Positions 2,729 to 53,820 of a DNA stretch of 64,000 nucleotides are shown here, piece by piece. This stretch comes from Acidobacteriota bacterium (GTDB lineage Bacteria; Acidobacteriota; UBA6911): NCBI GenBank assembly GCA_037444305.1, contig JBBIMP010000023.1, positions 2,798 through 66,797 on the forward strand, in the 5' to 3' direction. The notes under the pieces are model-generated. The model made no database searches. It was not told the origin of the DNA and was given only the letters and a program-made list of their open reading frames with translations. Each line of letters opens with the position of its first letter. Within the stretch, counting starts at the first letter, position 1. Position numbers and translations under genes: made by a program.

Positions 2729-3592
2729 TTATCGGGCACGGCTGCGGCGAGAGCAGTGGTAGAGGACGATGGCGGCCGCCGCCGCGACGTTGAGGGAATC
2801 GACCTCCCGCTGCATCGGGATTGCAATCCGAGCGTCGCATACGGAAAGCATTTCGGCGCTCAGCCCGCGCGCCTCGTTGCCGAACAGAAGCACTTCCCTG
2901 CCAGCCGGTTTCCACCCGTCGAGTTCCTGCGCGCGCTCATCGGCCACCGTTCCCACCAGTTGCCAGCCGTTCCCTGCTCTCAGCTTTTCGAGATCCCCGG
3001 CGAGGTCGGCGCATTCCCGGATCGGCAGGTGGAGCGCATTGCCCATGGAAACCCGCAAAATTCTGCGCGAAAAGGGATCGGGGCAGCCCGACCCGATCAG
3101 CAACCCGCCCACGCCGAAGGCCGCGCTCAAGCGGATGATGGCCCCGATGTTTTCCGGATCATCCACCCTCTCGCAGGCTGCGAGAAGCCCTCTCGATCTG
3201 CCCGCGCGCGCCATTTCCTCGAGAGACGGCTGCTCCTTCCGGCGCCCGCAGGCCATGATTCCCGCGTGGAATGCGAAACCGGTGAGGGTTGAGACGGATT
3301 GGTGCGGAATCACGTACCAGTCGAGCCCGGGTCGCAGCAGCGATGCGAACCGCGGCTCCTTGCGGTCGCTCACCATCACCGACACAACCTCAAAGTCGCT
3401 CTCCAGGAGCCGGTGCACGACCTTGTCACCCTCCGCGATGAAGAGACCGGCCTTGCGATCCAGCTTCGCCTGCTTGAGATCGCGGTAGGCATCCAGTCTC
3501 GGATCTTCGATCGAATCCAGCTCGATCCTCGCCACGCACCCTCCCCCGACTGCGAATCCGCAAAACCTATCCCGCATGCCGAATATGCGCAA
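2729..3592 (-). CDS. TrmH/SpoU-family RNA 2'-O-methyltransferase
   Basis: SpoU motifs DPENIGAIIRLSAAFGV, GNEARGLS and SLNVAAAAAIVLY. The true start is uncertain (a GTG near 3535 is possible). Confidence 0.7.
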   Translation of the reverse strand: MRIFGMRDRFCGFAVGGGCVARIELDSIEDPRLDAYRDLKQAKLDRKAGLFIAEGDKVVHRLLESDFEVVSVMVSDRKEPRFASLLRPGLDWYVIPHQSVSTLTGFAFHAGIMACGRRKEQPSLEEMARAGRSRGLLAACERVDDPENIGAIIRLSAAFGVGGLLIGSGCPDPFSRRILRVSMGNALHLPIRECADLAGDLEKLRAGNGWQLVGTVADERAQELDGWKPAGREVLLFGNEARGLSAEMLSVCDARIAIPMQREVDSLNVAAAAAIVLYHCSRRSRAR

Positions 3593-3921
3593 GCGGCAAC
3601 GGCGCCACTCTACCGTGTCTGCGAGTTATGACTTCCGGCCGGGCGCCCGCGGAGCCCGGAGCGCCAGCGACGGGTTGTCTGGCTTGAGTGGGCAACCCGA
3701 CCGCTCGCTGCCGCTCGCGGCTCCGTTTCCCCCGTGTCTTCAATACGGCTTTCCTTGGTTGCTGCCGCGGTGCGCTGCCCCCGAATTCATTGCGCTGTTC
3801 AGGGCGATCTTAACCCGGTATAGTGAAAAAGACAGGTCGAAATCCCGGGTGAACGCGAGGCGGACTCGCCGCCATCATGGACGCGCGCGCGATCGACCGC
3901 CGGGTCGCGCTCAATTGGCGT

Positions 3922-4810: not shown

Positions 4811-5007
4811 GTGCTCCGCCCGCCGCGCACTCCGTCCCCGCCGAGCCCCGGGACCGCGCTTTCAGGCGGTTTCACGAATCTTCCGGGGCTTGCAGGGTAT
4901 AGTCCCATCCTAACCACCTTCGCCGCATTTCCTCCTGCGCATCATCCTCCCCTCCAGCGAAGCCCCGGCTTGTTACCTCGAGCCGCCGCTGGCAGCAGAC
5001 CTGCACG

Positions 5008-16575: not shown

Positions 16576-17334
16576 ATGGATCCCATATCAGCCACGCTCA
16601 TCACGCTCGACGAGGAAGACAACATCGAAGAGGCGCTGAAATCGGTCTCCTGGGCCGACGAAATCGTCGTCGTCGACGGCGGGAGCCGCGATGCCACCCT
16701 GGATATCTGCCGCCGGTATACGGACAGGATCTATCGCCGCGACTGGACGGGTTTCGTGGATCAGAAAAACCACGCTGTCGAGCGGGCCCGGCACGACTGG
16801 ATCTTCTCGCTGGATGCCGATGAACGCGTTGGTCCGGAGCTCAAGGCTGAGATCGAAGCCCTGCGGGGCCCGGGTCCCAGGTTTGCCGGATACCGCATCC
16901 CCAGGGTGGCGCACTTCATGGGGCGCTGGATCCGCCACGGCGACTGGCACCCGGATCGCCAGCTCCGCCTGTTCGACCGCAGGCGCGGGCGGTGGTGCGG
17001 CGGCCGGGTGCACGAATCCGTGCAGGTCGACGGGGAATGCGGCATCCTGCGCGGCGAAATACTGCACTACACTTATCGCAGCCTCTCGGATTACCTGGAC
17101 AGGCTCGAAACTTACTCCACGCTGGCGGCGCGGGATTACCAGGAAAGAGGAAAGGTGGCGACAGCCTGGAAGGTGGCGGCGAATCCTCCGGTTACCTTCC
17201 TCAAAGCCTACGTCCTCAAGCGCGGCTTCCTGGACGGGCTGCCGGGATTCATGGTGGCGTTCATGGGCTCCGTCTCGGTTTTCTTCAAGTATGCCAAGCT
17301 GCTCGAGTTGCAGCGGTCGCGCCGGGAGCGGTGA
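16576..17334 (+). CDS. Family 2 glycosyltransferase (WaaE/KdtX-like)
   Basis: ISATLITLDEEDNIEEAL ... EIVVVDGGSRDAT ... FSLDADER. It starts 2 nt after the preceding stop (an internal ATG of ORF 16018..17334). Confidence 0.8.
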   Translation: MDPISATLITLDEEDNIEEALKSVSWADEIVVVDGGSRDATLDICRRYTDRIYRRDWTGFVDQKNHAVERARHDWIFSLDADERVGPELKAEIEALRGPGPRFAGYRIPRVAHFMGRWIRHGDWHPDRQLRLFDRRRGRWCGGRVHESVQVDGECGILRGEILHYTYRSLSDYLDRLETYSTLAARDYQERGKVATAWKVAANPPVTFLKAYVLKRGFLDGLPGFMVAFMGSVSVFFKYAKLLELQRSRRER

Positions 17335-17349
17335 GGGCAGGAAAAAGCA

Positions 17350-17461
17350 TTACACGGAGTTCACGGAGAAGCACGGAGGTCCACGGAGAAAACCGCCGAA
17401 TGCGGGGCAGCAAAAGCCCGCTCTCTGTGGTTCTCAGTGCTTCTCCGTGAACTCCGTGTAA
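17350..17461. repeat. Composite repeat element: four phased 10-bp CACGGAG direct repeats flanked by a 25-bp perfect inverted repeat
   Basis: The decamers tACACGGAGt, tCACGGAGaa, gCACGGAGgt and cCACGGAGaa sit at 17351, 17361, 17371 and 17381. The left arm at 17350-17374 is the exact reverse complement of the right arm at 17437-17461. Confidence 0.6.
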
Positions 17462-17554
17462 CCGCCTTTCGTTCCATTACCGCAAGCCTCCTGCCCCGGC
17501 TGTGCTATATTATCCGCTTTAATCCGGACCCCCATTGAACGAAAGGCCGTAATC

Positions 17555-22337: not shown

Positions 22338-22491
22338 CCGGGAAGGAAAGCCGTATTGAAGGGATACGGCAAACGGAAGCCGCGAACGAAAGTGAGCGGT
22401 CAAGCGGCCCAATCGAGTTATGCGATCCGTCGCTGCCGCTCCGCTCCTGTGGAACTACTTTGCGCCTGCAAAAGATAGTGCGGACAGGCAG
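22338..22491 (+). repeat. Intergenic repeat, copy A (ccgtattgaaggga... family)
   Basis: About 85% identical over its alignable blocks to 43672-43865, and in the same orientation. It contains two hairpins with conserved stems. Confidence 0.5.
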
Positions 22492-22506
22492 TACAAAAGC
22501 CCTGTG

Positions 22507-23103
22507 CTACTCGATGACAACCGGTCCGCTTGCCTGCGCCGGCCGACGATGGAAGCCGACAGTCTCTTCGTAGGCCGCCGCTATCGCGGCCGCTGAAACC
22601 GGGATCGTGATCAGGAGGCCGACGCCCAGGAGCAGCAGCCCGACGAAATTGAGCAGCAGGAGGAGGACCGCGAAGAGCATGTATCCCAGGAGATCCTTGA
22701 GCACCAGCTTTCTGCTCGCCTCCATCGCGTCCCAGAAGGGCAGGTTCCGGTCCTCGAGGAAAATGTAGGAGAAGAGATAGAGGGCGGTGACGATCAGCGC
22801 GGGAAACACGCAAAGGACCAGGCCCGCCAGAGTGAAGGCCGCCACCAGGATATGGACCAGGAAGGCATCCACGAACTTGCCGAATCCGGCAAAAAGGTCC
22901 ATCAGGTCGGTGCGACCCTCAAGCATCCGGCGCCTCACGGCCAGGAACATCCCTGAGGCGAGCGGCCCCGCCACCACGAACGCCCCGACGCTCACGAGCG
23001 CAACGGCCACCAGCGCGATGAGCACGAAGTTGCCGATGTCCGCTTTCACAATCCGCCAGCCCATCCCGATCCACCGTCCCGGCGTCACGGCTGCGTTGAC
23101 CAT
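22507..23103 (-). CDS. Integral membrane protein of unknown function (4-5 TM)
   Basis: Hydrophobic helices throughout. I recognise no catalytic motif. Confidence 0.45.
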   Translation of the reverse strand: MVNAAVTPGRWIGMGWRIVKADIGNFVLIALVAVALVSVGAFVVAGPLASGMFLAVRRRMLEGRTDLMDLFAGFGKFVDAFLVHILVAAFTLAGLVLCVFPALIVTALYLFSYIFLEDRNLPFWDAMEASRKLVLKDLLGYMLFAVLLLLLNFVGLLLLGVGLLITIPVSAAAIAAAYEETVGFHRRPAQASGPVVIE

Positions 23104-28229: not shown

Positions 28230-28907
28230 ATGCAGACGGAAAAATATCTCAAAGGCAGCCACCTGGGGGCCGGGCTCAACCCAACGGAGCTCGCCGCGCT
28301 CACGGCGATCGCCCGCACGAAGACCGTGACCAAGGGATCGATCCTCTTCATGGAAGGGGAAAAGGCCGAGGGTCTTTTCGTCCTGTTGAAGGGGATGCTC
28401 CGGATCTACAAGTCGGCTGCGTCGGGCAGGGAATATACGATCCACAGGATTCAGCCCGGGCAGATGTTCGCCGAGGCGGCCGTGTTTCACGTCGGCCGTT
28501 TTCCGGCCAACTGCGCCGCCCTGGAGGATTCCCTCGTCGCCTTTTTCCCCAAGGAGCGGTTCGCCGCGCTCATCGAGAAATCCCCGCAGATCTCGCTGAA
28601 AATCATCGCATCTCTCTCCAGGTTTCTGCGCGACTACAACCAGCAGGTGGAGAACCTCTCGCTGAAGGAAGTTCCCGCCCGCATCGCCTCCTACCTGCTG
28701 CGCGAATCCGAACGGCTCGATTCGCCGAGCATCGACCTGGAGATATCCAAGGCGGAACTGGCCAGGGGGCTGGGCACCATCAGCGAGACTTTTTCCCGCT
28801 CGCTGAAAAAACTCAAGGAGCTGCGGGTGATCAAGGTGGACCGCAACCGGATCACCATCCTGGATGAAGACCGCCTGGCCGACATCGCAGACGGTGAAAA
28901 AAGCTGA
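28230..28907 (+). CDS. Crp/Fnr-family transcriptional regulator
   Basis: A cNMP-binding beta-roll (ILFMEGEKAEGLFVLLKGMLRI) and a C-terminal HTH (ISKAELARGLGTISETFSRSLKKL). Start is either the ATG at 28230 or the one at 28203. Confidence 0.8.
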   Translation: MQTEKYLKGSHLGAGLNPTELAALTAIARTKTVTKGSILFMEGEKAEGLFVLLKGMLRIYKSAASGREYTIHRIQPGQMFAEAAVFHVGRFPANCAALEDSLVAFFPKERFAALIEKSPQISLKIIASLSRFLRDYNQQVENLSLKEVPARIASYLLRESERLDSPSIDLEISKAELARGLGTISETFSRSLKKLKELRVIKVDRNRITILDEDRLADIADGEKS

Positions 28908-28990
28908 CCCTTGACGCAAGTCAAGGAATCCGCATTTGCCGTCCGGTATCGTTGGAGCCGAAAGCTGGACTCAACGAAAAGGAGCGAGGT

Positions 28991-29743
28991 ATGCCGGTAC
29001 GGAACATCATTCACATCGACGAGGAAAAGTGCGACGGCTGCGGATTGTGCGTCCCCTCCTGCGCGGAAGGCGCCATCCAGATCGTCAACGGCAAGGCAAA
29101 ACTCGTGAACGAGGTGTATTGCGACGGCCTGGGCGCCTGCCTCGGCGAGTGCCCGCAGGATGCCATCCGCATGGAGCAGAGGCGGGCGCCGGAGTTCGAT
29201 CCGCACGCGGTCGAGGCGCATCTCGCCGCGCTGTCGGCCAAACAGGCGCCGGCTCCTCCGAAACCGCTGTTTTCATCGCCTCATCCCGCCGGCTGCCCCG
29301 GTTCGATGTCGCAGGTGTTGCAGCCCACGGCAAACCCTTGCGCGGCCCCGGCGGCGACGGCGCAGCCGCCCTCGAGGCTCGGCAACTGGCCGCTGCAGTT
29401 GCACCTGGTGCCGGTGCAGGCCCCGTTCTATGAGAATGCGGATCTGCTCATCGCGGCCGACTGCGCCCCGTTCGCCTACGCGGGTTTCCACGACGAGTTC
29501 ATCAAGGGAAAGACGGTGATGATCGGCTGCCCGAAGCTGGATGACGCCGGCGCCTACGTGGAAAAGCTGACGCAGATTTTCGCCGGCAACAGCATAAGAT
29601 CGGTCGAGATTGCCTTCATGGAAGTGCCCTGCTGTTTCGGGCTGGTCCGGCTGGTGCAGGAGGCAGTCGCCGGTTCGGGGAAGAGCATCCCGGTGAATCT
29701 GGCCAAGCTCGGCATCCGCGGCGGCATCGCGCAGCGCGGGTAG
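28991..29743 (+). CDS. 4Fe-4S dicluster-domain protein with a Cys-containing C-terminal domain of unknown function
   Basis: CDGCGLCVPSC and CDGLGACLGECP cluster motifs. The RBS AAAGGAG precedes the ATG at 28991, inside ORF 28952..29743. Confidence 0.65.
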   Translation: MPVRNIIHIDEEKCDGCGLCVPSCAEGAIQIVNGKAKLVNEVYCDGLGACLGECPQDAIRMEQRRAPEFDPHAVEAHLAALSAKQAPAPPKPLFSSPHPAGCPGSMSQVLQPTANPCAAPAATAQPPSRLGNWPLQLHLVPVQAPFYENADLLIAADCAPFAYAGFHDEFIKGKTVMIGCPKLDDAGAYVEKLTQIFAGNSIRSVEIAFMEVPCCFGLVRLVQEAVAGSGKSIPVNLAKLGIRGGIAQRG

Positions 29744-29854
29744 TCGCTTTTCCTTGCGTCCATTCCGTTCATGCGCACCCGGAATTCTCTGCGGGTGTAT
29801 TGAATGGGCCCAAAGTTTGTCTCGGCACATGCCACGATAACCGCGCGGATGAGA

Positions 29855-31894
29855 TCACTGCCTGCGGGCGAACGAATCCTGCGGCAGGCGGAGGCTCTCG
29901 AGCGTCAGCGTCGCGATATCCACCACCCGGATCCGCTCATCCAGATCGCGCAGTTTGACCGAATCCTCCAGCATCTGCTTGCAGTAGGCACACGAGGTGA
30001 CAATCGTGTCCGCCCCCTGTGCCTGCGCCTGGTCCACCCTGAGGTTGTTGATCCTCTCCCCGGCCTTCAGGTCCATCCAGAAATGTCCGCCGCCGCCGCC
30101 GCAGCACAGGCTCCGGGACCGGGCGTTCTTCATCTCCGCCACGTTCACGCCGGGAATGGCCCGGAGCACCTCCCTCGGGCTGTCGTAGATCTTCTGAAAG
30201 CGCCCCAGGTAGCACGGATCGTGATACACCGCCTTCTGCGCCGGCAGACCGACCGGCCGCAGGTGATCGCTCCAGAGCATCTCGTGCAGGTACTCCGTGT
30301 GGTGCACCACGCGGTAGTTTCCGCCGAATTGCGGGTATTCATGCGCCAGGACGTTGAAACAGTGCGGGCAGGCGGTCAGGAGCACCTGGAAACGGCGGCG
30401 GTTGAGCAGTTCGATCTGGCTCCTGGCCACTTCCTGAAACAGCGACTCGTCCCCCAGCAGCCGCGCAGGATCCCCGCAGCATCGCTCGTCCGCCCCGAGT
30501 ACGCCGAAGCGGATCCCGGTGGCCTGCAGCAGGCGGCAGAGGTCCTGGGCAATCTGCTGCTTCGTGGGATCGAACGTGGTGCAGCAGCCGATCCACAGCA
30601 GCACATCGATCGACTCCCCCTCGCCGATGACCGGGATCCCCATTTTTTCGATCCACGCCATGCGCTCCCCTTGCGGCCCGAAGGGATTGCCGAGCTGGCC
30701 GAGCATCTTCAGCATGCGGGCGGCATCGACCGGAACCGAGCCTCCCATCATGGTCTGGTGCCGGCGCAGGTCGACGACCGTGTCGAGGTGCTCGACCCGC
30801 GCCGGACAGACCTCCTGGCAGGCGCCGCAGGTGCGACAGTACCAGATCAGGTCGCCGTCGATGGCGCCGCCCACGACCTGACGGGGCGCGCCGGCGCCAT
30901 TCCCGTTCCCCCTTCCGGCTTCGCTGCGCACGAAGGCCTTCAGCTCGGAGATCAGCGCGCGCGGCGAGAGCGGCTGCCTCGCCTGCCGCGAAGGGCAGAC
31001 GTCGTCGCAGCGGCCGCACTCGACGCACCCGTCGAAGCCCAGCCTTTCCCGCCAGGTGAAGTCGGCTGCGGTGGCGATGCCGATCTGCAGCGCCGCTTCG
31101 TCGATGTCCTCCGCCGCCATAAGCGCGGCTACATCCGGCCGCGCGAGGCTGCCCCAGGCCTCGGTCTTCTGCAGTGCCACGTTGGCCGGGATCAGCACCA
31201 TGTGCAGCAGCTTGGTGTAGGGGATCAAGGCGATGAAGCCGAGCGCCATGACGCAGTGGGTCCACCAGACAAAGGCGTGAAGCGCGCGCCCGGCGTCTGC
31301 CCCCAAACCTGAAAACAAAAGCGAAAAGGCAGAGCCCACCGGGGACCACGCTGCCCACGGATCGCCAGCCACCCTGATGCGGAGCCCTTCGACCAGGAAT
31401 CCGCTCAGGAGAATCCCCGCGAGCAGCGCCAGCACCAGGTGATCCGCCGCGCGCGTGGGTAGCGTCGCCGGCCGGGCGATCGTGCGGCGGTAGAGGGCGA
31501 TGCCGATCCCCACCAGCGCCAGCAATCCCGCGATATCGGCCGCGAGCGAAAACACCAGGTAAAGGGTGCCCCGGAAGAGCGACGTGCCCAGGTCCATGTC
31601 CAACATCACCAGCAGCGTCGTCAGGAACATCACCGCAAAGGCATAGAAGATGAGACCGTGAAACAGCGCCGGCAGGCGCTCGCGCCCGACTCCCCGCTGC
31701 AGCAGAATCTCCTTGAGCATTGCCATGAGGCGCGCGCCGGGAGCCGACGTGCGATCTACGGGACGGCCGATCTGCCACTGCCTGTATCTCCGCCGGATCC
31801 CGAGGCCGAACACCACCGCGGTCGCGCCCAGCAGCGCGTACATGATCCAGATGAAGCTGACGTTCCAGCCGAGTTCTCGATGGGCTTCCACCAT
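29855..31894 (-). CDS. Fused NarI-like dihaem cytochrome b membrane domain plus HdrD-like Fe-S/CCG-domain oxidoreductase (DsrMK/HdrED-type)
   Basis: An N-terminal ~300 aa with five or more TM helices and conserved His residues. Then CVECGRCDDVCP and CRTCGACQEVCP (two 4Fe-4S sites). Then two CCG modules (WIGCCTTFDP ... CPHCFN and CCGGGGGHFW ... CAYCKQ). I take the ATG at ~31894 inside ORF 29855..31975. Confidence 0.7.
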   Translation of the reverse strand: MVEAHRELGWNVSFIWIMYALLGATAVVFGLGIRRRYRQWQIGRPVDRTSAPGARLMAMLKEILLQRGVGRERLPALFHGLIFYAFAVMFLTTLLVMLDMDLGTSLFRGTLYLVFSLAADIAGLLALVGIGIALYRRTIARPATLPTRAADHLVLALLAGILLSGFLVEGLRIRVAGDPWAAWSPVGSAFSLLFSGLGADAGRALHAFVWWTHCVMALGFIALIPYTKLLHMVLIPANVALQKTEAWGSLARPDVAALMAAEDIDEAALQIGIATAADFTWRERLGFDGCVECGRCDDVCPSRQARQPLSPRALISELKAFVRSEAGRGNGNGAGAPRQVVGGAIDGDLIWYCRTCGACQEVCPARVEHLDTVVDLRRHQTMMGGSVPVDAARMLKMLGQLGNPFGPQGERMAWIEKMGIPVIGEGESIDVLLWIGCCTTFDPTKQQIAQDLCRLLQATGIRFGVLGADERCCGDPARLLGDESLFQEVARSQIELLNRRRFQVLLTACPHCFNVLAHEYPQFGGNYRVVHHTEYLHEMLWSDHLRPVGLPAQKAVYHDPCYLGRFQKIYDSPREVLRAIPGVNVAEMKNARSRSLCCGGGGGHFWMDLKAGERINNLRVDQAQAQGADTIVTSCAYCKQMLEDSVKLRDLDERIRVVDIATLTLESLRLPQDSFARRQ

Positions 31895-31898
31895 GGGA

Positions 31899-32393
31899 TT
31901 ACACTCCTGTCGAATGCCGTGCGGGCAGAGCGGCGGCCGGCAGCACGACCTGGGGCAACGGCTCGGCAAACACACTCACCGGCGCATCGGCCGGCACAGT
32001 CACCTCCCGGCCGTGCCCGACGCCGGAAGGCGTGCGCCGGTAGTGGCTGCGCACCTTCTGCGAGACAACATCCCAGAGTTCCGTCGCCGCCACCAGCTTT
32101 GCTCCGCGCAGGTCCAGAAGCGCCAACAGCGGCCGCAGCGCTGCCATGGACCTCGACAGGCAGCCGCATCGGTCGACCAGGAACGAGCTCCAGGGCCCCT
32201 CGAACCGCAGGGCCGCTCGCAGCCCCGTGCGGTCCATCAACGAACACTCCCGCGCCTCGTCCTCAAACCAGGCGATGATCTCGATTCCCTGCTGCCGGGC
32301 GTATTCCTCGATCCGGCGCCGCTGGTCGGCGCAGCACACCTCGCCGGATCCGGTGCAAGACGATATCGGGCTCACATATGCAATGGCCTTCAT
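31899..32393 (-). CDS. Small Cys-rich protein with a resolvase-N-terminal-like (flavodoxin-like) fold; paralog A1
   Basis: MKAIAYV ... VCCADQ ... LVDRCGCLSRS ... AATELWD. About 35-40% identical to the upstream paralog. Internal ATG at 32393 inside ORF 31899..32408. Confidence 0.5.
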   Translation of the reverse strand: MKAIAYVSPISSCTGSGEVCCADQRRRIEEYARQQGIEIIAWFEDEARECSLMDRTGLRAALRFEGPWSSFLVDRCGCLSRSMAALRPLLALLDLRGAKLVAATELWDVVSQKVRSHYRRTPSGVGHGREVTVPADAPVSVFAEPLPQVVLPAAALPARHSTGV

Positions 32394-32447
32394 GCCTCCT
32401 CCCTCCACGATGGTCAGGGGCGCGTTCCATCCGCGCCCCCGGCGGTT

Positions 32448-32927
32448 TCACAGGCCGGTCGGCTGCCGTACCAGAGCGGCGAAGTTGAGGCGGGCGGGCC
32501 GCTTCATTCCGATCCGATCCCGCACGGGCACGATCTGCGTGATCACGCAGGTCGGCGGCCGCAGCGCACCTTTGTGGAAGTGCCGCACCTGCTGCGAGAG
32601 GCAGTCCCACAGCTCGGTGGCCGACTGCAGCGCGACATTCTTTTCCTGCAACGCCTCCAGCAGCGGCCTCACCTCCGACAGGGACCTGCTGAAGCACCAG
32701 ATACGCTCCACCAGGATGAGGTCGTAGGAATCCGGGTGCGCCAGCATCGCCTTGACACCTGGACGCTCCACCACCGGCCCGTGGCAACCGTCATCTTCAA
32801 ACCGCGCCACGATCTCTATGCCGTGTGTCTTGGCGTACAGCTCAATCTGCTCGCGCTGCTCCTCGCAACAGATTTCGATATCGGTGTTGGGGATTCGAAT
32901 GCAGTTCACATAGGTGATGGCTTTCAT
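32448..32927 (-). CDS. Small Cys-rich protein with a resolvase-N-terminal-like (flavodoxin-like) fold; paralog A2
   Basis: MKAITYV ... ICCEEQ ... LVERIWCFSRS ... SATELWD. RBS AAGGAG 7 nt before the ATG at 32927 (inside ORF 32448..32972). Confidence 0.5.
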   Translation of the reverse strand: MKAITYVNCIRIPNTDIEICCEEQREQIELYAKTHGIEIVARFEDDGCHGPVVERPGVKAMLAHPDSYDLILVERIWCFSRSLSEVRPLLEALQEKNVALQSATELWDCLSQQVRHFHKGALRPPTCVITQIVPVRDRIGMKRPARLNFAALVRQPTGL

Positions 32928-32967
32928 CTTCTGTCTCCTTTTAGGGCTCGGTCCCCTCGCCTGCAAT

Positions 32968-32983
32968 AGCACGCTCCGTGCCA
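32968..32983 (-). promoter_or_regulatory. Candidate sigma-54 (-24/-12) promoter: TGGCACGGAGCGTGCT
   Basis: On the minus strand, the GG and GC elements have exactly the consensus spacing. It lies ~40 nt upstream of the A2 ATG and immediately downstream of a GAFTGA-type bEBP gene. Confidence 0.45.
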
Positions 32984-33312
32984 GGCCCCGGGCCGCAAGC
33001 TATCACTATGTTTTCAAATGGTTTATGACCGATCGATCCGCGGACAGGCCGTTGCGTCCCATGGCGTGAGTGTAAGAAAACCTTGCGGCGAGCCGGACAA
33101 AAGGGCCGAACCGAGGACGCAAATCACTATTAATGAATGGTATGCAGGCAGCAGCGGCCCGCTGTAAGGATTTCTTGCATCGTATTCGGCGCTGCGGGAA
33201 TGGCGCGCCAGAAACAAAAGAAATGCAATGATTTGCAGTCCCGGATAGTCCCGCGCAAATAAAACTATCGCCTCTGCGGGATCCGGCAGCAGGATCCCCG
33301 GCGCCTGCACTA

Positions 33313-34677
33313 TCAGTCGAGGCCGTGTTTTTTCAGCTTGCTGTGCAGGCCGACGCGGGAGCAGCCGAGTATTCTCGCGGCGGCGGTGCGGTTGCCGGAG
33401 GTGTGGTCCAGAACCCGGATAATGTGCTCGCGCTCCAGTTCCGAGAGCGTCTTGAACCCATGGGCGCCGGCGGGAAGACGGGAACCGTTCAGCCCGGCAG
33501 TGACCGCCGGGGGGAGCGACCTCCGGGTGAGCGCACGCTTTTTTTCGAGCACAACGGCGGAGGCGATGATGTTCTCCAGTTCCCGGACGTTTCCCGGATA
33601 GTCGTAACGCTCCAGGATCTCGAGCACGTCGTCTTCTATGTATTCGATCCGCCTGTCGTTCCTCCGGCAGTGCCGGTCGAGGAAGAAATAGGCCAGCAGG
33701 TCCACATCCCCCTTCCGCTCCCTGAGCGGCGGGAGGTGGATGGAACTGATGTTGAGCCGGTAATAAAGGTCGAGGCGAAATCCGCCCGCCTCGATCATCG
33801 CCGGCAGGTCCCGGTTGGTAGTGGCGATGACCCTCACGTCCACGCCCCGCCGCTGCGTCGATCCCACGTGAAAGAACTCCCCCTCCTGCAGAACCCGCAG
33901 GAGCTTTGCTTGGTTGACCGCCTCCAGGTCGCCGATCTCGTCCAAGAAGAGCGTGCCGCCATCCGCTTCCTCGAAGAAGCCGGTTTTCTGCCGGTGGGCG
34001 CCCGTGAACGCGCCCCTCTCGTGGCCGAAGAACTCGGAGGCGAACAGGTCGGCCGCGTGCTCCGCCATATTGACCGCAATGAAGGGCCCGGCAGCGCGAG
34101 GACTGGCGCGGTGGATGGCGTGCGCCACCAGCTCCTTTCCGGTTCCGCTCTCCCCCTGGATGAGAACGTTGTTGCCGCTCCGCGCGATCTGCTCCAGCCT
34201 TCCGAGGATGCGAAGCAGGGCCGGATCGCGCGTGACGATTCCGTGGAAGCCGGCCTCGTGTCTCAGCTTTTCCTGGGCAATCTCCCCCCGCAGCCGGGAG
34301 ACCTGGCCGCGGAGACGGCTGTGCTCCAATGCGCGTTCCATGGAGGTCAGGAGCCGGTTTTTGTCCACGGGCTTGCAGATGTAGTCGTAGGCTCCCAGCT
34401 TCATGGCATCGACCGCGAGCGAAACGTCCTCCACCCCGGTAATCACGATCACCCCCAGGTCATGTTTCTCGCGGACGTACCGGAGAATGTCCCGGCCCGT
34501 GACCGTGGGCATATCCATGTCCAGGAGGATCAGGTCGAAATCACCGCCGTCAATCACACTGAAGGCGCGGCTGCTGTCCTGGAGCGTCTCCACTTCGAAG
34601 CGGCCGTCCTGGGCGAAGAACACGAGGAAGTGGTTCAGGACGGCCTCGTTGTCGTCGATGATGAGGATGCGGTTCAC
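33313..34677 (-). CDS. Sigma-54-dependent response regulator (NtrC/AtoC family): REC, AAA+ and Fis-type HTH domains
   Basis: ILIIDDNE ... LLDMDMP (REC), GESGTGKE, GAFTGA, a C-terminal HTH (AAARILGCSRVGLHSKLKK). GTG start at 34677, overlapping the kinase stop (GTGA). Confidence 0.85.
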   Translation of the reverse strand: MNRILIIDDNEAVLNHFLVFFAQDGRFEVETLQDSSRAFSVIDGGDFDLILLDMDMPTVTGRDILRYVREKHDLGVIVITGVEDVSLAVDAMKLGAYDYICKPVDKNRLLTSMERALEHSRLRGQVSRLRGEIAQEKLRHEAGFHGIVTRDPALLRILGRLEQIARSGNNVLIQGESGTGKELVAHAIHRASPRAAGPFIAVNMAEHAADLFASEFFGHERGAFTGAHRQKTGFFEEADGGTLFLDEIGDLEAVNQAKLLRVLQEGEFFHVGSTQRRGVDVRVIATTNRDLPAMIEAGGFRLDLYYRLNISSIHLPPLRERKGDVDLLAYFFLDRHCRRNDRRIEYIEDDVLEILERYDYPGNVRELENIIASAVVLEKKRALTRRSLPPAVTAGLNGSRLPAGAHGFKTLSELEREHIIRVLDHTSGNRTAAARILGCSRVGLHSKLKKHGLD

Positions 34678-36362: not shown

Positions 36363-37043
36363 CTAGGCAAGCATCCGCTCCCGGGCCAACCGGCGGCCGG
36401 TTGCGGTATGGAGCTTCTTTTCAATAAGGCTTTCCCGTGCAGGCCGGTCGAGCAAAGATCTGCGCTGCAGCAACTTGAACAGGTTCACCGCATCCCGGAC
36501 GATCCTTCCATCCGCCTCGGCCGAACCGTTCGACTCGCCGCCGCCCGACAGGATATGGCAGACCCGGTCGATCACTTCCCCCTCGGTTCCCAGCTCCAGC
36601 AAAACGGCGCACGCCTCTTCCTCGGATCCCGGTTCCGCAAGGTTCGCCAGCATCGCCGCGGCAATCACCACCTTGGGCTCGCCGCCCTCCTCCGAGTTGA
36701 TCTCTTCGGCCAGCTCGGCAATCTCCAGGCACTGCTGCAGCCGGTCATTCTCGGGTTTTAACGACCTGCGCACGACCGCCAATAGCCGGTCGCGATACAG
36801 CGCGCTCAGATTCTCTCCTTCGAACATCTCGGGCATGCAGGTTTCGGCGTACTTGCAGTACTCCAGGCAGCCCAGGTTGCGCTTGGGATTCAAAAAGCGG
36901 TGGCCGCACCTGCAGGTGCGCTTGGCGTCATCCTTCCAGAATTCGACCGGCTTGCCGCAACTGGGGCACTTGACGTCGTAGATGTCGTCCGGCTTCCAGA
37001 ACATGGTGTTCTGTCCCGGACAGCGGAGATCGTTCTGGCTCAC
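36363..37043 (-). CDS. Cys-rich (zinc-ribbon-like, 8 Cys) N-terminal domain protein with a degenerate HD-like C-terminal region
   Basis: CPSCGKP ... CRCGH ... GCLEYCKYAETC. It is co-oriented with, and ~190 nt upstream of, the kinase gene. Confidence 0.4.
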   Translation of the reverse strand: MSQNDLRCPGQNTMFWKPDDIYDVKCPSCGKPVEFWKDDAKRTCRCGHRFLNPKRNLGCLEYCKYAETCMPEMFEGENLSALYRDRLLAVVRRSLKPENDRLQQCLEIAELAEEINSEEGGEPKVVIAAAMLANLAEPGSEEEACAVLLELGTEGEVIDRVCHILSGGGESNGSAEADGRIVRDAVNLFKLLQRRSLLDRPARESLIEKKLHTATGRRLARERMLA

Positions 37044-42764: not shown

Positions 42765-43634
42765 TCAGCGGATGGTTTTCGGTTGCCTGTCGCGGCGAAA
42801 TCCCTGAAATTCGTAGGTGATGCCCATCGCGAGTCCGGTATCGGGATCGTAGCGTTTCAGCCCGGCGATGCCGGCGAGGTCCCATCGGAGCCCGCCCGAC
42901 CGGATGCGCACTCCCAGCCGGATCCTCGACTGGTTTTCGTTGCCGACGCGTTCCGCACCCTGCCGCCCGTTGATTTCCCCCACAAGGTCTACCCTGGAAT
43001 GCAGCGGAACGGCCAGGCCAAAGCCATAGGTCAGCAGATCTGCCTGCGTGTTGGCCTGCACGGGCGATCCGAGGATGGCAATTCCGACGTTTCCGAGAAG
43101 TTGCGCCGGGCCAAGATGCTTCGAGGCCAGGATGCTGCCATAGAACGCCATCTCGTCGGTGCCCAGACCGCTCTCGTTGCCTGCGTTCGGGAGCTGCACC
43201 GCGAATTTGAAGGCCAGGGCGGGCTTTCTGCCCGTCTCCCGGGCCAGTCTGAGCTTCGCGGCGAGCAGAAGATCGCCAAAGTCGCTGGTGGCGTTGCCGT
43301 CGAAATCGGGCTTGATGACCGGGATTGTCCTGCGCGTCACCGAAAGAAAATCCCTGACGGTCCCCGATATCTGGAACTCCGCGTACTCCCCGACCCCTAT
43401 GTGGATCCCGCCGACTCCCAGGCGCGTGAGGTCGCCTTCCAGGCCGGACAGCGAGTATCGCTGGTTCTGGAAAAACTCCACGCCCATCTGCAGCCGGATC
43501 CGGCCGACGGGCAGCAGTTCGGCCGCGTCGGTTGCGAGGGGGCGTTCCTGTGAGTGGAGGGGCACAGCCAGGAACAGCAGGAAAACTGCGGCCGGCAAAG
43601 ATTTGTACACCGGTGAGCACCTCGGAACCATCAA
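42765..43634 (-). CDS. Secreted putative outer-membrane beta-barrel protein of unknown function
   Basis: A signal peptide, alternating amphipathic beta-strand patterning, and an aromatic near the C-terminus. Confidence 0.4.
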   Translation of the reverse strand: MMVPRCSPVYKSLPAAVFLLFLAVPLHSQERPLATDAAELLPVGRIRLQMGVEFFQNQRYSLSGLEGDLTRLGVGGIHIGVGEYAEFQISGTVRDFLSVTRRTIPVIKPDFDGNATSDFGDLLLAAKLRLARETGRKPALAFKFAVQLPNAGNESGLGTDEMAFYGSILASKHLGPAQLLGNVGIAILGSPVQANTQADLLTYGFGLAVPLHSRVDLVGEINGRQGAERVGNENQSRIRLGVRIRSGGLRWDLAGIAGLKRYDPDTGLAMGITYEFQGFRRDRQPKTIR

Positions 43635-43671
43635 GCGTTACACGAAGTAACAGAGCGCAGCATGGCCGCAA

Positions 43672-43895
43672 CCGGGCAAGGCCGTATTGAAGGGACGCGG
43701 CAAGCGGAGCCGCGAACGCCAGTGAGCGGTTTGGCAACCAAACCCGTCGCTATTGCTCCGGGCTCCGTTGAATCCCGGCCGGCAATCAGAAACGGCGGAA
43801 GGAGCAACCCTCAACCGTTCCCGCGAAATTTCTCCGCGTACAAAAAAGATGCCTCTGACTGGCAGTTCAGATTAACACGGAGATTCACGGAGAGC
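43672..43895 (+). repeat. Intergenic repeat, copy B (composite): the ccgtattgaaggga module, a caaaaagat...ggcag module, and two CACGGAG decamers
   Basis: It aligns block-wise to 22338-22491, and its 3' end aligns to the 17340-17371 element. Confidence 0.5.
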
Positions 43896-43896
43896 T

Positions 43897-44673
43897 TCAT
43901 TTGTTTCCAGTGCGGCCCGCCGTATCGTTGTCCGCTCTCTTGTCTAGCGCTGCCAATTCGTGTTGCACAATCGCCACCGCCGCCAGCGATGCGGTCTCTG
44001 CGCGGAGAGTGTGCCTGCCCAGGCTGAAGCTCTCAAATCCGGCGTCTGTCGCCGCGTCCTCCTCCGCCGGATCCCAGCCCCCTTCCGGGCCCACGCACAG
44101 GACGACTCTATCCGGCGCACACGGTCCCAGCGACAAGCGCTTCACGGCTTTGGGCGAAAGTAGAAGGCGAATGCCGGCTTTCCTTCCCTCCCCGTCGACG
44201 AAGTCCACGAAGGTGTGCGGCGCGGTCACGGCGGGCGCCTCGTTGCGTCCGCACTGCTTGCAGGCCTCCTGGACGATGCGCCGCCACCTCTGCATCCGGG
44301 ATTCGAGCCGCTTGCCCGGGATGCGGGCGCTTCCGCGCCGGGTAATGAGCGGCACGAACTCATTTATGCCGAGTTCCGTCCCCTTCTGCAGAATCCACTC
44401 GAAGCGGTCCGGCTTTATCAGCGCAGCAGCCAGCACCACGGCAGCCGGCGTGGCATCACCCGACGATACCCGTTGCAGATTTGTCAGGCGCACCGTCTCT
44501 CCCTGTATCTCCACCGTGCCGGCATGGCTTTCGCCGGTTCCGTCGAATATCTCCACCTCCTCACCGGCTCGGATCCGCAAAACGTGGCGCAGGTGGTGGG
44601 ATTGATCCGCGGGCAGTACGGCGTGGTCGCCCCGGAAGAGAACGGCGGGTACAAAAAATCGTCTGCGCGCCAT
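43897..44673 (-). CDS. rsmE: 16S rRNA (uracil1498-N3)-methyltransferase
   Basis: RRFFV ... a PUA-like N-terminus, and SPOUT motifs (LCVGPEGGW, LGRHTLRAETA). Confidence 0.85.
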   Translation of the reverse strand: MARRRFFVPAVLFRGDHAVLPADQSHHLRHVLRIRAGEEVEIFDGTGESHAGTVEIQGETVRLTNLQRVSSGDATPAAVVLAAALIKPDRFEWILQKGTELGINEFVPLITRRGSARIPGKRLESRMQRWRRIVQEACKQCGRNEAPAVTAPHTFVDFVDGEGRKAGIRLLLSPKAVKRLSLGPCAPDRVVLCVGPEGGWDPAEEDAATDAGFESFSLGRHTLRAETASLAAVAIVQHELAALDKRADNDTAGRTGNK

Positions 44674-51807: not shown

Positions 51808-52014
51808 ATGAATCCCCTTTCGCTCGACGGCTTCATTCGCGGCTACGCCGCGGCCTTTGATTACAGGCCTAGAATGTAAGCTTTTACGGCGCCGAATTCA
51901 AACAGGGAAGCAAGGGAAGCGGAGGGAGGGTCGCGGGGAAAAAGGCCGGTCCCCAAGGTCTTCCGTGCGGCAGTTGCTGCCGCACGGAAGACCCTGAGGC
52001 GGACTGGCTACGCG

Positions 52015-53764: not shown

Positions 53765-53820
53765 AAAGGGGGACAGGCTACCGTGTCCCTCTGGAGGGAC
53801 ACGGTAGCCTGTCCCCCTTT
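53765..53820. terminator. Perfect 26-bp-stem hairpin with a 4-nt loop, flanked by A-rich 5' and T-rich 3' sequence (a bidirectional intrinsic-terminator-like structure)
   Basis: AAAGGGGGACAGGCTACCGTGTCCCT-ctgg-AGGGACACGGTAGCCTGTCCCCCTTT, then TTTGATT. Confidence 0.6.

What the first reader, a model, noticed from the sequence alone, without database searches (positions are those of the whole stretch)
43662..43895. Composite repeat locus (copy B) joining three modules found separately elsewhere in the window
Between the outer-membrane-like gene and rsmE (both on the minus strand), a ~230-bp non-coding stretch contains three modules in order:
- the ccgtattgaaggga hairpin module seen at 22338;
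- the caaaaagat...ggcag module seen at 22465-22491 and in degenerate form at 17340-17349;
- two phased CACGGAG decamers (43875-43894), as at 17351-17371.

A mosaic structure like this suggests a mobile or recombining small repeat family, or a modular small RNA.
Basis: seen in the sequence. Interest (0 to 1): 0.5.

Follow-up and report, generated by a model that had tools for sequence, protein, structure and literature searches.

The report
Mosaic palindromic intergenic repeat element
This non-coding stretch is one of three copies of a genome-specific mosaic repeat built around two mirror-image DNA hairpins, which also occur in many soil-metagenome contigs and some contigs classed as viral; it is an ordinary REP/BIME-like repeat, not a new gene or regulator.

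Summary

Modules 1 and 2 are parts of one element, not separate modules. Module 2 is only weakly similar between A and B. The CACGGAG decamers are a second motif, shared with a 156-nt palindrome at 17328-17483.

The centre of the element (43705-43767) is an inverted pair of 20-nt hairpin units, CCGC-GA-NC-GNNA-GN-GA-GCGG and its diverged mirror. A small variable hairpin separates them and a 5-bp stem clamps them. The same design occurs at roughly 100 sites in soil-metagenome contigs, and unit 1 occurs in 70 IMG/VR contigs, with covariation supporting the hairpins. The 5' hairpin and the 3' modules have no homologues elsewhere.

Nothing matches Rfam, and both strands fold equally well. No canonical promoter was found; the only terminator-like hits are the antisense 5' hairpins of A and C. 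The three copies sit in three different gene contexts. Two syntenic relatives lack the element at the orthologous site.

Best reading: a REP/REPIN/BIME-like dispersed palindromic repeat, a new member of a known kind. Mobilisation and any role at transcript ends are inferred. Interest is low to moderate.

The parts
43654..43680 (+). 5' flank of the element, shared by copies B and C only
   Evidence: BLAST of the window against itself aligns 43654-43791 with 3776-3626 at 73% identity, E 4e-18.
43681..43701 (+).
   Evidence: The 12 nt GCCGTATTGAAG are invariant in all three copies. Folding is weak: -7.8 kcal/mol, z -1.85. HP1 has no homologue outside this genome. On the antisense strand of copies A and C it is flagged as terminator-like.
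43705..43709 (+). 5' strand of the outer clamp stem (CGGAG), pairing with 43763-43767
   Evidence: Columns 14-18 with 89-93 of alignment A4: all 5 pairs show changes on both sides somewhere in the family.
43710..43729 (+). Hairpin unit 1: CCGC-GA-AC-GCCA-GU-GA-GCGG (stem, tandem G.A internal loop, 2-bp stem, GNNA loop)
   Evidence: The inner pair is A-U in A and B, G-C in C and C-G in most relatives, and is never unpaired in 26 sequences. The pattern AGCCGCGANCGNNAGNGAGCGGT hits 70 IMG/VR contigs in 78 distinct contexts.
43730..43742 (+). Variable spacer hairpin (UUUGG-CAA-CCAAA)
   Evidence: The sequence differs in A, B and C, but B and C each fold locally there. This is the variable-length region of alignment A4.
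43743..43762 (+). Hairpin unit 2, the mirror-image unit: CCCG-UC-GC-UAUU-GC-UC-CGGG
   Evidence: It has the same shape as the reverse complement of unit 1, but with outer stem CCCG/CGGG. It is conserved in B and C and degraded in A. The metagenome pattern built on it gave 95 loci.
43763..43767 (+). 3' strand of the outer clamp stem (CUCCG)
   Evidence: The whole dimer 43698-43775 scores 75.3 bits with model R1; note that copy B is part of the training set.
43768..43830 (+). Middle segment, present in B and C and absent from A
   Evidence: Alignments A1 and A2. It contains an arm (43791-43807) that is 76% complementary to the unit-2 region.
43831..43883 (.). Weak 3' hairpin: arms 43831-43839 (TCTCCGCGT) and 43875-43883 (ACACGGAGA), with 'module 2' (43843-43866) in the loop
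   Evidence: The arms are 89% complementary. The fold is not significant: z -1.5 on the plus strand and -1.9 on the minus strand. Module 2 similarity to copy A has p = 0.09.
43876..43892 (+). Two CACGGAG decamers, 10 nt apart, ending 5 nt from the rsmE stop codon
   Evidence: Match to both arms of the palindrome at 17328-17483 has p < 0.002.
22340..22500 (+). Copy A of the composite element, between the convergent genes pepA (stop at 22314) and a 198-aa gene (stop at 22507)
   Evidence: nhmmer E 6.4e-35; R1 50.6 bits. It lacks the middle segment and 2 nt of unit 2.
3545..3776 (-). Copy C of the composite element, in the divergent spacer between the SpoU methylase gene (start 3535, minus strand) and a YtxH gene (start 3989, plus strand)
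   Evidence: nhmmer E 4e-38; R1 67 bits. Gene calls come and Pfam.
17328..17483 (.). 156-nt imperfect palindrome whose arms each carry four CACGGAG decamers; this is the second repeat family that contributes module 3
   Evidence: Self reverse-complement BLAST E 1.5e-18. RNA fold -79 kcal/mol, z -10.8.

Best explanation
Copy B is the most complete of three copies of a ~200-220-nt mosaic intergenic repeat specific to this lineage. It is of the REP/REPIN/BIME kind.

**Shown**
- The core (43705-43767) is an inverted pair of 20-nt hairpin units.
  - Unit 1 is CCGC-GA-NC-GNNA-GN-GA-GCGG.
  - Unit 2 is its diverged mirror image, CCCG-TC-GC-NNNN-GC-TC-CGGG.
  - A short variable hairpin separates them and a 5-bp outer stem closes them.
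- This dimer design is a family that occurs at roughly 100 sites in the soil-metagenome contigs I fetched.
- Unit 1 also occurs alone, in both kinds of inverted pair, and in tandem arrays in IMG/VR contigs.
- The flanking parts are private to this genome: the 5' hairpin GCCGTATTGAAG..., the middle segment, and the 3' part with 'module 2'.
- The CACGGAG decamers belong to a second palindromic family that happens to abut copy B.

**Inferred**
- The composite has been copied between intergenic spacers as DNA, by an enzyme acting in trans that I could not identify. This would resemble how REP-associated tyrosine transposases move REP doublets.
- The copies then decay by point changes and deletions.
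- Once in place the element is transcribed only as part of neighbouring transcripts. Its G+C-rich hairpins would then act as passive barriers at transcript 3' ends or as processing sites.
- It is not an independent gene.
For: **Repeat family within the window**
- Three copies at E 1e-34 to 1e-38. There are no others in the window (filters off) or in the rest of the contig.

**Wider family**
- The 19-base pattern from unit 1 hits 70 IMG/VR contigs in 78 distinct contexts. The free positions agree: inner pair C-G in 70 of 78, loop G-Y-N-A.
- Of the 97 matches, 11 have the mirror unit downstream and 10 upstream; 76 have no partner or sit in tandem arrays.
- The unit-1-end-to-unit-2 pattern gives 95 metagenome loci.
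- Model R1 gives 180 matches on the two strands together, about 100 sites, in 0.5 Mb. One 10.9-kb locus has 4 sites.
- A profile of our three copies matches outside sequences only over columns ~31-118, which is the dimer.

**Structure**
- The model of local hairpins plus outer stem is 92% paired. It has 8 pairs and 26 cells with changes on both sides, a covariation score of 0.19 against 0.08 in shuffles, and 0.02-0.05 when slid.
- The unit-1 inner pair is GC in 18, AU in 4 and CG in 4 sequences, and is never broken. In a single-long-hairpin model the same columns are broken in 8 and in 4 sequences.

**Independence from context**
- Copy A lies between convergent genes. Copy B is antisense within a co-directional spacer. 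Copy C lies in a divergent spacer.
- In other genomes the related palindromes exactly fill the gaps between convergent ORFs.
- ORFs near the units encode unrelated housekeeping proteins.

**Lineage-specific at this site**
- Gene order hrcA-grpE-dnaK-dnaJ-rsmE-spacer-outer-membrane-like gene is kept in two relatives, but their spacers show no similarity to copy B.

**More copies are likely**
- All three Logan contigs from run SRR11582151 that reach a copy end inside it, at window 22373, 43756 and 3719.
Against: - Only three copies could be examined, and they are only 73-87% identical. That is low for an actively spreading family.
- The rest of the genome could not be fetched, so copy number is unknown.
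- I recognised no target-site duplication. There are no inverted repeats at the outer ends of the ~200-nt composite.
- There is no unpaired GTAG or CGTC tag of the kind that defines the described REP superfamilies (PMC3733652). The 5' flank is CNGAG.
- No Y1/HUH transposase appears in the Pfam annotations for the parts of the contig fetched with gene calls, which leave window ~28400-33900 unannotated, or among 150 ORFs next to units elsewhere.
- The flanking modules have no outside homologues. The 'composite' could therefore reflect a few segmental duplications rather than a mobile unit.
- The covariation could equally reflect selection on an RNA.
- The Logan contig ends are indirect evidence only.
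- Any role at transcript ends is pure inference. Copy B has no terminator-like site.
Confidence: 0.62

Rival explanations
1. The element is a family of structured non-coding RNAs, either a small RNA or a cis-acting RNA. It would have a cloverleaf-like core (an outer stem plus three hairpins) and be transcribed from the plus strand of copy B.
For: - Base-pair covariation in the unit-1 hairpin and the outer stem.
- A tandem G.A internal loop and a GNNA loop, both typical RNA motifs, visible in the sequence.
- The core folds better than shuffled sequence, z -3.9.
- The model scores the plus orientation 22 bits higher than the minus orientation.
Against: - The reverse strand folds as well or better: z -4.1 for B and -4.2 for C; for the whole element, -98.9 against -86.1 kcal/mol.
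- There is no promoter-like site at any copy, and no terminator-like site on the plus-strand orientation.
- Nothing in Rfam matches, even at E up to 10.
- Orientation relative to neighbouring genes differs in all three copies.
- The element is absent from the orthologous spacers of syntenic relatives.
- In other genomes the unit occurs in both orientations, in arrays and as perfect palindromes. That fits a DNA repeat better than an RNA gene.
Confidence: 0.15
2. [quoted passage not shown] It would be derived from an insertion sequence, have terminal inverted repeats and target-site duplications, and be moved by that insertion sequence's DDE transposase.
For: - Size of ~200 nt, intergenic location and multiple copies.
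- Another nested palindrome with 25-nt arms occupies the orthologous spacer in a relative. This shows that such spacers do accept palindromic elements.
Against: - The inverted repeat is internal (43705-43767), not at the ends of the conserved block. The ends of the composite are not complementary.
- I recognised no direct repeats flanking any copy.
- No transposase appears in the Pfam annotations for the fetched parts of the contig.
Confidence: 0.1
3. The copies are primarily transcription-end elements kept in place by selection: bidirectional terminators or 3'-UTR stabiliser hairpins. They would be neither mobile nor selfish DNA.
For: - Copy A fills a convergent spacer, and copy B starts just after the rsmE stop codon on the other strand.
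- The antisense form of HP1 followed by TTTCCTT is flagged as terminator-like in copies A and C.
- Related palindromes in other genomes sit exactly between convergent ORFs.
- The window contains other long hairpins that look like terminators.
Against: - Copy C lies in a divergent promoter spacer, where no terminator is expected.
- Copy B has no terminator-like site on either strand.
- Termination needs a hairpin, not ~125 nt of sequence conserved between unlinked loci.
- The orthologous spacers of relatives use unrelated sequences.
Confidence: 0.08
4. For module 3 only: the CACGGAG decamers, spaced by one DNA helical turn, are binding sites for a DNA-binding protein (an operator- or iteron-like array) rather than stem material of a palindrome.
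For: - The spacing is 10 nt in copy B and 9, 10 and 10 nt at 17353-17388.
- Four IMG/VR contigs carry 3-4 tandem CACGGAG decamers in intergenic DNA near gene starts.
Against: - At 17328-17483 the decamers form two perfectly opposed arms of a very stable hairpin, z -10.8.
- Copy B has only two decamers.
- Tandem 10-nt arrays are common, so four viral hits may be chance (my own estimate, not computed).
- No candidate regulator was identified.
Confidence: 0.05

Closest known systems
REP sequences and REPINs (REP doublets mobilised by RAYT tyrosine transposases; Pseudomonas and Enterobacteria; PMC3116915, PMC2817692, PMC3479197)
   Same: - Units are 20-nt imperfect palindromes in intergenic DNA.
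- They occur singly, as inverted doublets separated by a short spacer, and in clusters.
- The doublet can fold into a longer hairpin.
- The two units of a doublet differ (a heterodimer).
- They are often found right after stop codons and between convergent genes.
   Different: - There is no unpaired GTAG or CGTC tag; the flank is CNGAG.
- The unit has an invariant tandem G.A internal loop and a GNNA loop.
- No RAYT gene was found.
- The same unit sequence is shared among many metagenome contigs and contigs classed as viral, whereas REP sequences are usually specific to a species.
- Copies in this window are only 73-87% identical.
BIMEs (bacterial interspersed mosaic elements of E. coli: REPs in alternating orientation combined with other short conserved motifs)
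   Same: A mosaic: two inverted REP-like units combined with other conserved, non-REP segments in a fixed order. Different copies carry different subsets; copy A lacks the middle segment.
   Different: - The accessory motifs (HP1, the middle segment, 'module 2') are unrelated in sequence to the BIME L, S, l and r motifs.
- Binding of IHF, gyrase or DNA polymerase I is unknown here.
ERIC/IRU and Correia (NEMIS) elements: 100-160-nt imperfect palindromic intergenic repeats that are co-transcribed and fold as RNA hairpins
   Same: Similar size class, intergenic location, insertion-deletion variants between copies, and co-transcription with neighbouring genes as the likely mode of any effect.
   Different: - Correia elements have terminal inverted repeats and a TA target duplication.
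- ERIC is a single long imperfect palindrome.
- Here the palindrome is an internal pair of discrete hairpin units and the ends are not inverted repeats.
Rfam families of Acidobacteria (for example Acido-Lenti-1, RF01687)
   Same: Small hairpin-rich motifs found in the same kind of organisms. One contig carrying the unit (L078) also carries two Acido-Lenti-1 matches.
   Different: Neither the window element nor the widespread unit matches this or any other Rfam model.

Membership tests
REP / REPIN-RAYT system | Short (20-40 nt) imperfect palindromic unit that forms a stem-loop | tested here: met
   The 20-nt units at 43710-43729 and 43743-43762 are 97% paired across 26 sequences, with compensatory changes at the inner pair.
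REP / REPIN-RAYT system | Inverted doublets separated by a short spacer (REPIN architecture) | tested here: met
   All three window copies and about 100 metagenome sites have unit 1, a spacer, then an inverted unit 2. Of 97 IMG/VR matches, 21 have an inverted partner within 4-34 nt.
REP / REPIN-RAYT system | High copy number (tens to hundreds) dispersed in the intergenic DNA of one genome | not testable with these tools
   Only ~76 kb of the source genome could be read. It holds 3 copies, all intergenic. Logan contig ends inside all three copies hint at more. The remaining MAG contigs could not be fetched.
REP / REPIN-RAYT system | Conserved unpaired GTAG (or CGTC) tetranucleotide at one end of the hairpin (PMC3733652) | tested here: not met
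   The 5' flank is C-N-G-A-G (CCG, CTG, CAG or CGG before AG). In the window it is CGGAG. The CGTC inside unit 2 is part of the hairpin, not an unpaired tag.
REP / REPIN-RAYT system | A Y1 (HUH) transposase gene flanked by the units | tested here: inconclusive
   No PF01797 appears in the Pfam annotations of the contig regions fetched with gene calls, which leave window ~28400-33900 unannotated. It is not among the 25 families shown of 47 matched by 150 ORFs next to units in other contigs. RAYT genes are usually single-copy, so absence from this sample says little.
BIME-type mosaic | REP units in alternating orientation combined with other conserved short motifs in a fixed order | tested here: met
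   The order is HP1, unit 1, spacer hairpin, unit 2, middle segment, 3' part in B and C. Copy A has the same order without the middle segment.
MITE | Terminal inverted repeats at the two ends of the element | tested here: not met
   The inverted-repeat search on each copy finds only internal arms. The outer ends (43654... and ...43872) are not complementary.
MITE | Target-site duplication flanking each copy | tested here: inconclusive
   No flanking direct repeat is visible by eye in the three copies. The ends are blurred at 73-87% identity, and three copies are too few.
Known RNA family (Rfam 15) | Score at or above the gathering threshold of a covariance model | tested here: not met
   0 matches in the whole window. 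The best match at 43600-43950 with permissive filters is 19 bits, E 0.41, to an animal microRNA model, which is noise.
Intrinsic terminator | G+C-rich hairpin immediately followed by a T-run | tested here: not met
   No site on either strand in 43500-44000. Only the antisense HP1 of copies A and C is flagged.
Cis-regulatory leader / riboswitch | Consistent position upstream of, and in the same sense as, a related set of genes | tested here: not met
   Only copy C precedes a gene in sense orientation (SpoU methylase). Copy A lies after pepA and faces a convergent gene. Copy B is antisense to both neighbours.

The most novel reading that the evidence does not exclude
The invariant hairpin unit CNGAG-CCGC-GA-NC-GYNA-GN-GA-GCGG-U may define an undescribed, broadly distributed superfamily of structured repeats in soil bacteria and their phages. 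It has tandem G.A pairs and a GNNA loop. It occurs alone, in heterodimers with a distinct mirror unit, and in arrays of period 67-69 nt. Such a superfamily could have its own dedicated recognition protein, either a new nuclease or transposase acting on REP-like hairpins, or an RNA-binding factor. In that reading the window's three-hairpin 'cloverleaf' core would be a functional single-stranded DNA or RNA module rather than inert repeat DNA.
Probability: 0.15. Interest if true: 0.55.

Novelty: new member of a known kind. Interest (0 to 1): 0.3.

Why it matters
- For annotation of this MAG, the result means the three spacers should be labelled as repeat elements, not as candidate small RNAs or regulators. 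It also explains why short-read assemblies of this organism break at these sites.
- More generally, the central hairpin pair ties a private, lineage-specific mosaic to a palindromic-repeat family found in many soil-metagenome contigs and in contigs classed as viral.
- That family is absent from Rfam, and I could not find it by sequence in the searchable literature.
- If someone identifies the enzyme or protein that recognises the unit, it would extend the REP/RAYT picture, worked out mainly in Proteobacteria, to poorly studied soil lineages. It could also give a host-phage linkage marker.
- In itself the finding is an ordinary kind of bacterial repeat.

Tried and rejected
**Searches that found nothing useful**
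- Rfam on the whole window at gathering thresholds, and on 43600-43950 at E up to 10: nothing meaningful.
- Exact-pattern scan of GTDB species genomes for HP1 plus CGGAGCCGCG: 8 hits, all in coding sequence and judged chance.
- First metagenome scan for HP1 plus AGCCGCGA: 0 hits. Viral scan for HP1: 0 hits. HP1 is therefore private to this lineage.
- Close relatives for a comparison of orthologous loci: the best rsmE homologue is only 52-55% identical. Only distant syntenic loci could be compared.
- A 998-aa chimera of the six-frame translations of the three copies, searched against the protein database to catch mis-called ORFs on other copies: no hit at E up to 10.
- BLAST of a consensus palindrome against GenBank phages and PLSDB plasmids: no match.
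- Literature searches for the unit sequences and their translations: only unrelated primer hits. Papers on REP, RAYT and tagged REPs do not list this unit.
- Pfam scan of 150 ORFs next to units, looking for an associated transposase: none; the neighbours are unrelated housekeeping genes.

**Ideas considered and dropped**
- Group II intron domain V, because of AGCCGUAU in HP1. The stem is too short and there is no bulge.
- CRISPR array, because of the 67-69-nt period in L021 and L060. The 'spacers' are themselves repeated half-units.
- A sigma-54 or sigma-70 promoter inside the element. No consensus is present.
- An early impression that G-U pairs favour the plus strand. This was withdrawn after folding both strands.
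- A weak HP1-like match at 36413-36436. It lies inside a called gene and has E 0.2.
Full report
**Source and setting**

The window is part of contig CAZIEJ010000011.1 (78,954 nt) of MAG GCA_964538715.1. The closest rsmE homologues among 5.8 billion proteins are only 52-55% identical. The few that carry names are from Acidobacteria MAGs. The organism is therefore an isolated lineage, probably related to Acidobacteriota.

The finding lies in the 286-nt spacer between two genes on the minus strand:
- rsmE, 43897-44673 (PF04452 and PUA_4);
- a 281-aa gene, 42765-43610, that just reaches the Pfam cut-off for PF13557, a putative outer-membrane family.

**Check of the observation**

*Module 1 is real.* GCCGTATTGAAGGGAYRCGGCAARCGG occurs at 43681 and 22350 and nowhere else, against 0.00 expected. 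A search with the next segment turned up a third copy on the minus strand at about 3700. A profile built from the three copies finds:
- 3623-3757 (minus strand), E 4e-38;
- 22342-22462 (plus strand), E 6.4e-35;
- 43674-43794 (plus strand), E 1.5e-34.

The next hits have E above 0.2. BLAST of the window against itself extends the B-C similarity to 43654-43791 against 3776-3626, at 73% identity.

*Module 2 is weak.* It sits at 43843-43866 and 22469-22492 and follows module 1 in both A and B. Alignment shows that A is B minus about 55 nt. Taken alone, the similarity is not significant (p = 0.09). The claimed degenerate copy at 17340-17349 is not supported. Copy A's module 2 resembles the loop of the 17.3-kb palindrome somewhat better (p = 0.01).

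*Module 3 is real.* The two CACGGAG decamers at 43876-43892 match both arms of a 156-nt imperfect palindrome at 17328-17483, each arm carrying four decamers (p < 0.002).

So modules 1 and 2 are one ~200-nt composite element present three times. The decamers are a second family lying next to copy B.

**Anatomy of the core**

A pattern taken from the middle of the core, AGCCGCGANCGNNAGNGAGCGGT, hit 70 IMG/VR contigs unexpectedly. In 78 distinct contexts the free positions agree: GAGCCGCGA-C-CG-(T/C)N-AG-G-GAGCGGT.

Read as a hairpin, this is CCGC / GA / NC / GYNA / GN / GA / GCGG:
- a 4-bp stem;
- a symmetric tandem G.A internal loop;
- a 2-bp stem;
- a GNNA loop.

The one free pair is C-G in 70 of 78 viral contexts, A-U in window copies A and B, and G-C in copy C.

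Downstream in the window copies lies CCCG-TC-GC-NNNN-GC-TC-CGGG. This has the shape of the reverse complement of such a unit, but with a different outer stem. A second metagenome scan built on that arrangement (GAGCGGT, 8-30 nt, CCGTCGCTNNNGCTCCGG) returned 95 loci. They include two recognisable groups:
- A group from one sample with TTTCAGAGCCGCGAGCGCAAGCGAGCGGT, a spacer, then CCCGTCGCTGGCGCTCCGGGCTCGG. This is nearly the core of window copy C.
- Perfect long palindromes of the type GTCAGTACCGGGAGCGGTAGCGACCGGG...CCCGTCGCTACCGCTCCGGGTACTGAC.

The profile of the three window copies matches these outside sequences only over columns ~31-118, that is, the inverted dimer. HP1 and the 3' modules have no outside homologues.

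**Structure tests**

I tested two models on a 26-sequence alignment (A4).

| Model | Cells paired | Key result |
|---|---|---|
| Two local hairpins | 97% | Unit-1 inner pair GC 18, AU 4, CG 4, never broken |
| Single long hairpin | 94% | The same two columns are broken in 8 and in 4 sequences |
| 5-bp outer stem + two local hairpins | 92% | 8 pairs and 26 cells with changes on both sides; covariation 0.19 against 0.08 in shuffles and 0.02-0.05 when slid |

Three caveats apply:
- Unit 2 was fixed by the search pattern, so its invariance is uninformative.
- The sequences are related to each other.
- Palindromic DNA can gain 'compensatory' changes by DNA-level processes.

The core is thus an outer clamp (43705-43709 with 43763-43767) enclosing unit 1 (43710-43729), a small variable hairpin (43730-43742) and unit 2 (43743-43762).

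Both strands fold equally well. For B, z is -3.9 (plus) and -4.1 (minus); for C, -2.65 and -4.2. For the whole element, the reverse strand of B is the more stable. Each strand presents one G.A-type hairpin at its 5' side, so the dimer is pseudo-symmetric, as expected of a DNA repeat.

**Distribution**

- Model R1, built from A4, finds only the three copies in the window with filters off; the next best hit is 13 bits, E 0.09.
- The profile finds no further copies in the rest of the contig that I could fetch.
- In the 95 metagenome loci, R1 finds 180 matches on the two strands together, about 100 sites in 0.5 Mb. One 10.9-kb locus has four sites.
- In IMG/VR contigs the unit occurs in several arrangements:
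  - without an inverted partner (76 of 97 matches, counting those in tandem arrays);
  - as an inverted pair in either order (11 and 10 of 97);
  - in tandem arrays with truncated half-units, period 67-69 nt.
- In one clearly phage-like contig, an inverted pair sits just after a capsid-like gene.
- In MAG JAESGS01, the related palindromes exactly fill the gaps between convergent ORFs.
- ORFs next to units encode unrelated housekeeping proteins, and no Y1 transposase appeared.

**Context of the three window copies**

| Copy | Position | Neighbours |
|---|---|---|
| A | Fills the 192-nt spacer | Convergent genes pepA and a 198-aa gene |
| B | Antisense within the spacer | rsmE and the outer-membrane-like gene, co-directional |
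| C | 10 nt upstream of the SpoU methylase gene, same sense | Divergent 453-nt spacer |

No sigma-70-like promoter was found around any copy, and copy B has no terminator-like site. The only terminator-like hits are the antisense forms of HP1 followed by TTTCCTT in A and C.

**Orthologous loci**

Two distant relatives keep the gene order hrcA-grpE-dnaK-dnaJ-rsmE-spacer-outer-membrane-like gene, with spacers of 261 and 196 nt. Neither spacer is similar to copy B. One contains a different nested palindrome with 25-nt arms. Both contain a TTGAGTTTATAATGCG box that the window lacks. The element is therefore not an old, conserved regulatory sequence of this locus.

**Hint of more copies**

Three Logan contigs from run SRR11582151 carry identical flanking genes, and each stops inside a copy:
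- at window 22373, just after HP1 of copy A;
- at 43756, in unit 2 of copy B;
- at 3719, in unit 1 of copy C.

The arms are too imperfect to break a 31-mer graph by themselves. The simplest reading is that other copies sharing 30-mers or longer exist elsewhere in that genome. This is inference.

**Interpretation**

The features that define REP/REPIN/BIME-type repeats are mostly met:
- short hairpin units;
- inverted heterodimers with a short spacer;
- mosaics with other conserved motifs;
- intergenic location, often at gene ends;
- singletons, pairs and clusters.

Two features are not established. There is no GTAG or CGTC tag (the flank is CNGAG), and no associated Y1 transposase was found. 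I therefore file the element as REP/BIME-like, a new member of a known kind, and not as a proven REPIN-RAYT system.

It fails the tests for the other kinds I considered:
- MITE: there are no terminal inverted repeats, and I recognised no target duplication;
- any Rfam family;
- intrinsic terminator (copy B);
- cis-regulatory leader.

Copying by a trans-acting enzyme, and a passive role of the hairpins at transcript ends, rest on analogy with REP biology (PMC3116915, PMC2817692, PMC3733652). Nothing here shows them.

**Recollection, not verified**

From memory, translations of these units (for example ...SRDREGAV..., ...PLPHGRGS..., ...RSLTVAAR...) are familiar as spurious small ORFs in genomes of Acidobacteria, Planctomycetes and Verrucomicrobia.

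**Verdict**

The small-RNA reading is unsupported. The element is an ordinary class of bacterial repeat. The mildly interesting point is that its core unit belongs to a widespread hairpin family, shared with contigs classed as viral, that appears to be undescribed.

Noticed in passing
window 17328-17483: A 156-nt imperfect palindrome between a glycosyltransferase-like gene and the next gene on the plus strand. Each arm is four CACGGAG decamers. The RNA fold is -79 kcal/mol, z -10.8. Its loop (17400-17419) weakly resembles 'module 2' of copy A (p = 0.01).
   Followed up: partly
window 53765-53820 and 51951-51999: Two near-perfect palindromes (96% and 86% self-complementary). The first has an A-run before it and a T-run after it, so it looks like an ordinary bidirectional intrinsic terminator. 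Neither is related to the repeat family.
   Followed up: partly
L189 (end), L010 (end) and L012 (start), corresponding to window 22373, 43756 and 3719: All three Logan short-read contigs of run SRR11582151 that reach a copy of the element terminate inside it. This suggests assembly-graph branch points caused by further near-identical copies elsewhere in that genome.
   Followed up: partly
L184 4750-4931: The orthologous rsmE-to-outer-membrane-like-gene spacer of a distant relative (GCA_016929335.1) holds a different ~180-nt nested palindrome, with 25-nt arms TAACCCGGATTATTCATGAAGCTTC that are 96% complementary. L186 has a shorter, degraded version. This spacer seems to attract palindromic elements.
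   Followed up: partly
L184 about 4945-4960 and L186 about 4825-4840: A conserved box, TTGAGTTTATAATGCG (it resembles an extended -10 promoter), lies upstream of the outer-membrane-like gene in both relatives. No counterpart exists in the window, where that gene may depend on read-through from rsmE or on a different promoter.
   Followed up: no
L060 13100-13480 and L021 (same array): Tandem arrays of period 67-69 nt. Each period holds one full unit GAGCCGCGACCGTCAGGGAGCGGT and two truncated half-units (GAGCCGCGCC...). The array is not a CRISPR array and its period is not a multiple of three.
   Followed up: partly
L081 4478-4538: In a phage-like IMG/VR contig, an inverted pair of the unit sits between a capsid-like gene (303 aa) and a small gene starting MDLRMFYQ. 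Several other IMG/VR contigs show the unit about 40-60 nt before genes that start MD(L/V)(R/K)(S/T)YY.
   Followed up: no
L078 4699-4744 (minus strand) and 4841-4886 (plus strand): Two Acido-Lenti-1 RNA (RF01687) matches in inverted orientation, at 47.5 and 43.2 bits. They lie on a contig that also carries an inverted pair of the unit.
   Followed up: no
window 22350-22370 (minus strand) and 3732-3748 (plus strand): On the strand antisense to the element, HP1 followed by TTTCCTT is flagged as an intrinsic-terminator-like site in copies A and C. It is not flagged in copy B, where the T-run has decayed to CTTGCCC.
   Followed up: partly
L104 (10.9 kb): Four separate sites of the inverted hairpin dimer lie within 10.9 kb of one metagenome contig, at about 1235, 3469, 5673 and 9405. 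The family can therefore be very dense in some genomes.
   Followed up: no
window 36413-36436 (minus strand): GGGAAAGCCTTATTGAAAAG resembles the 5' end of the element (GGAAAGCCGTATTGAAG). It lies inside a called 213-aa gene and is not significant (E 0.2), so it is probably chance.
   Followed up: partly
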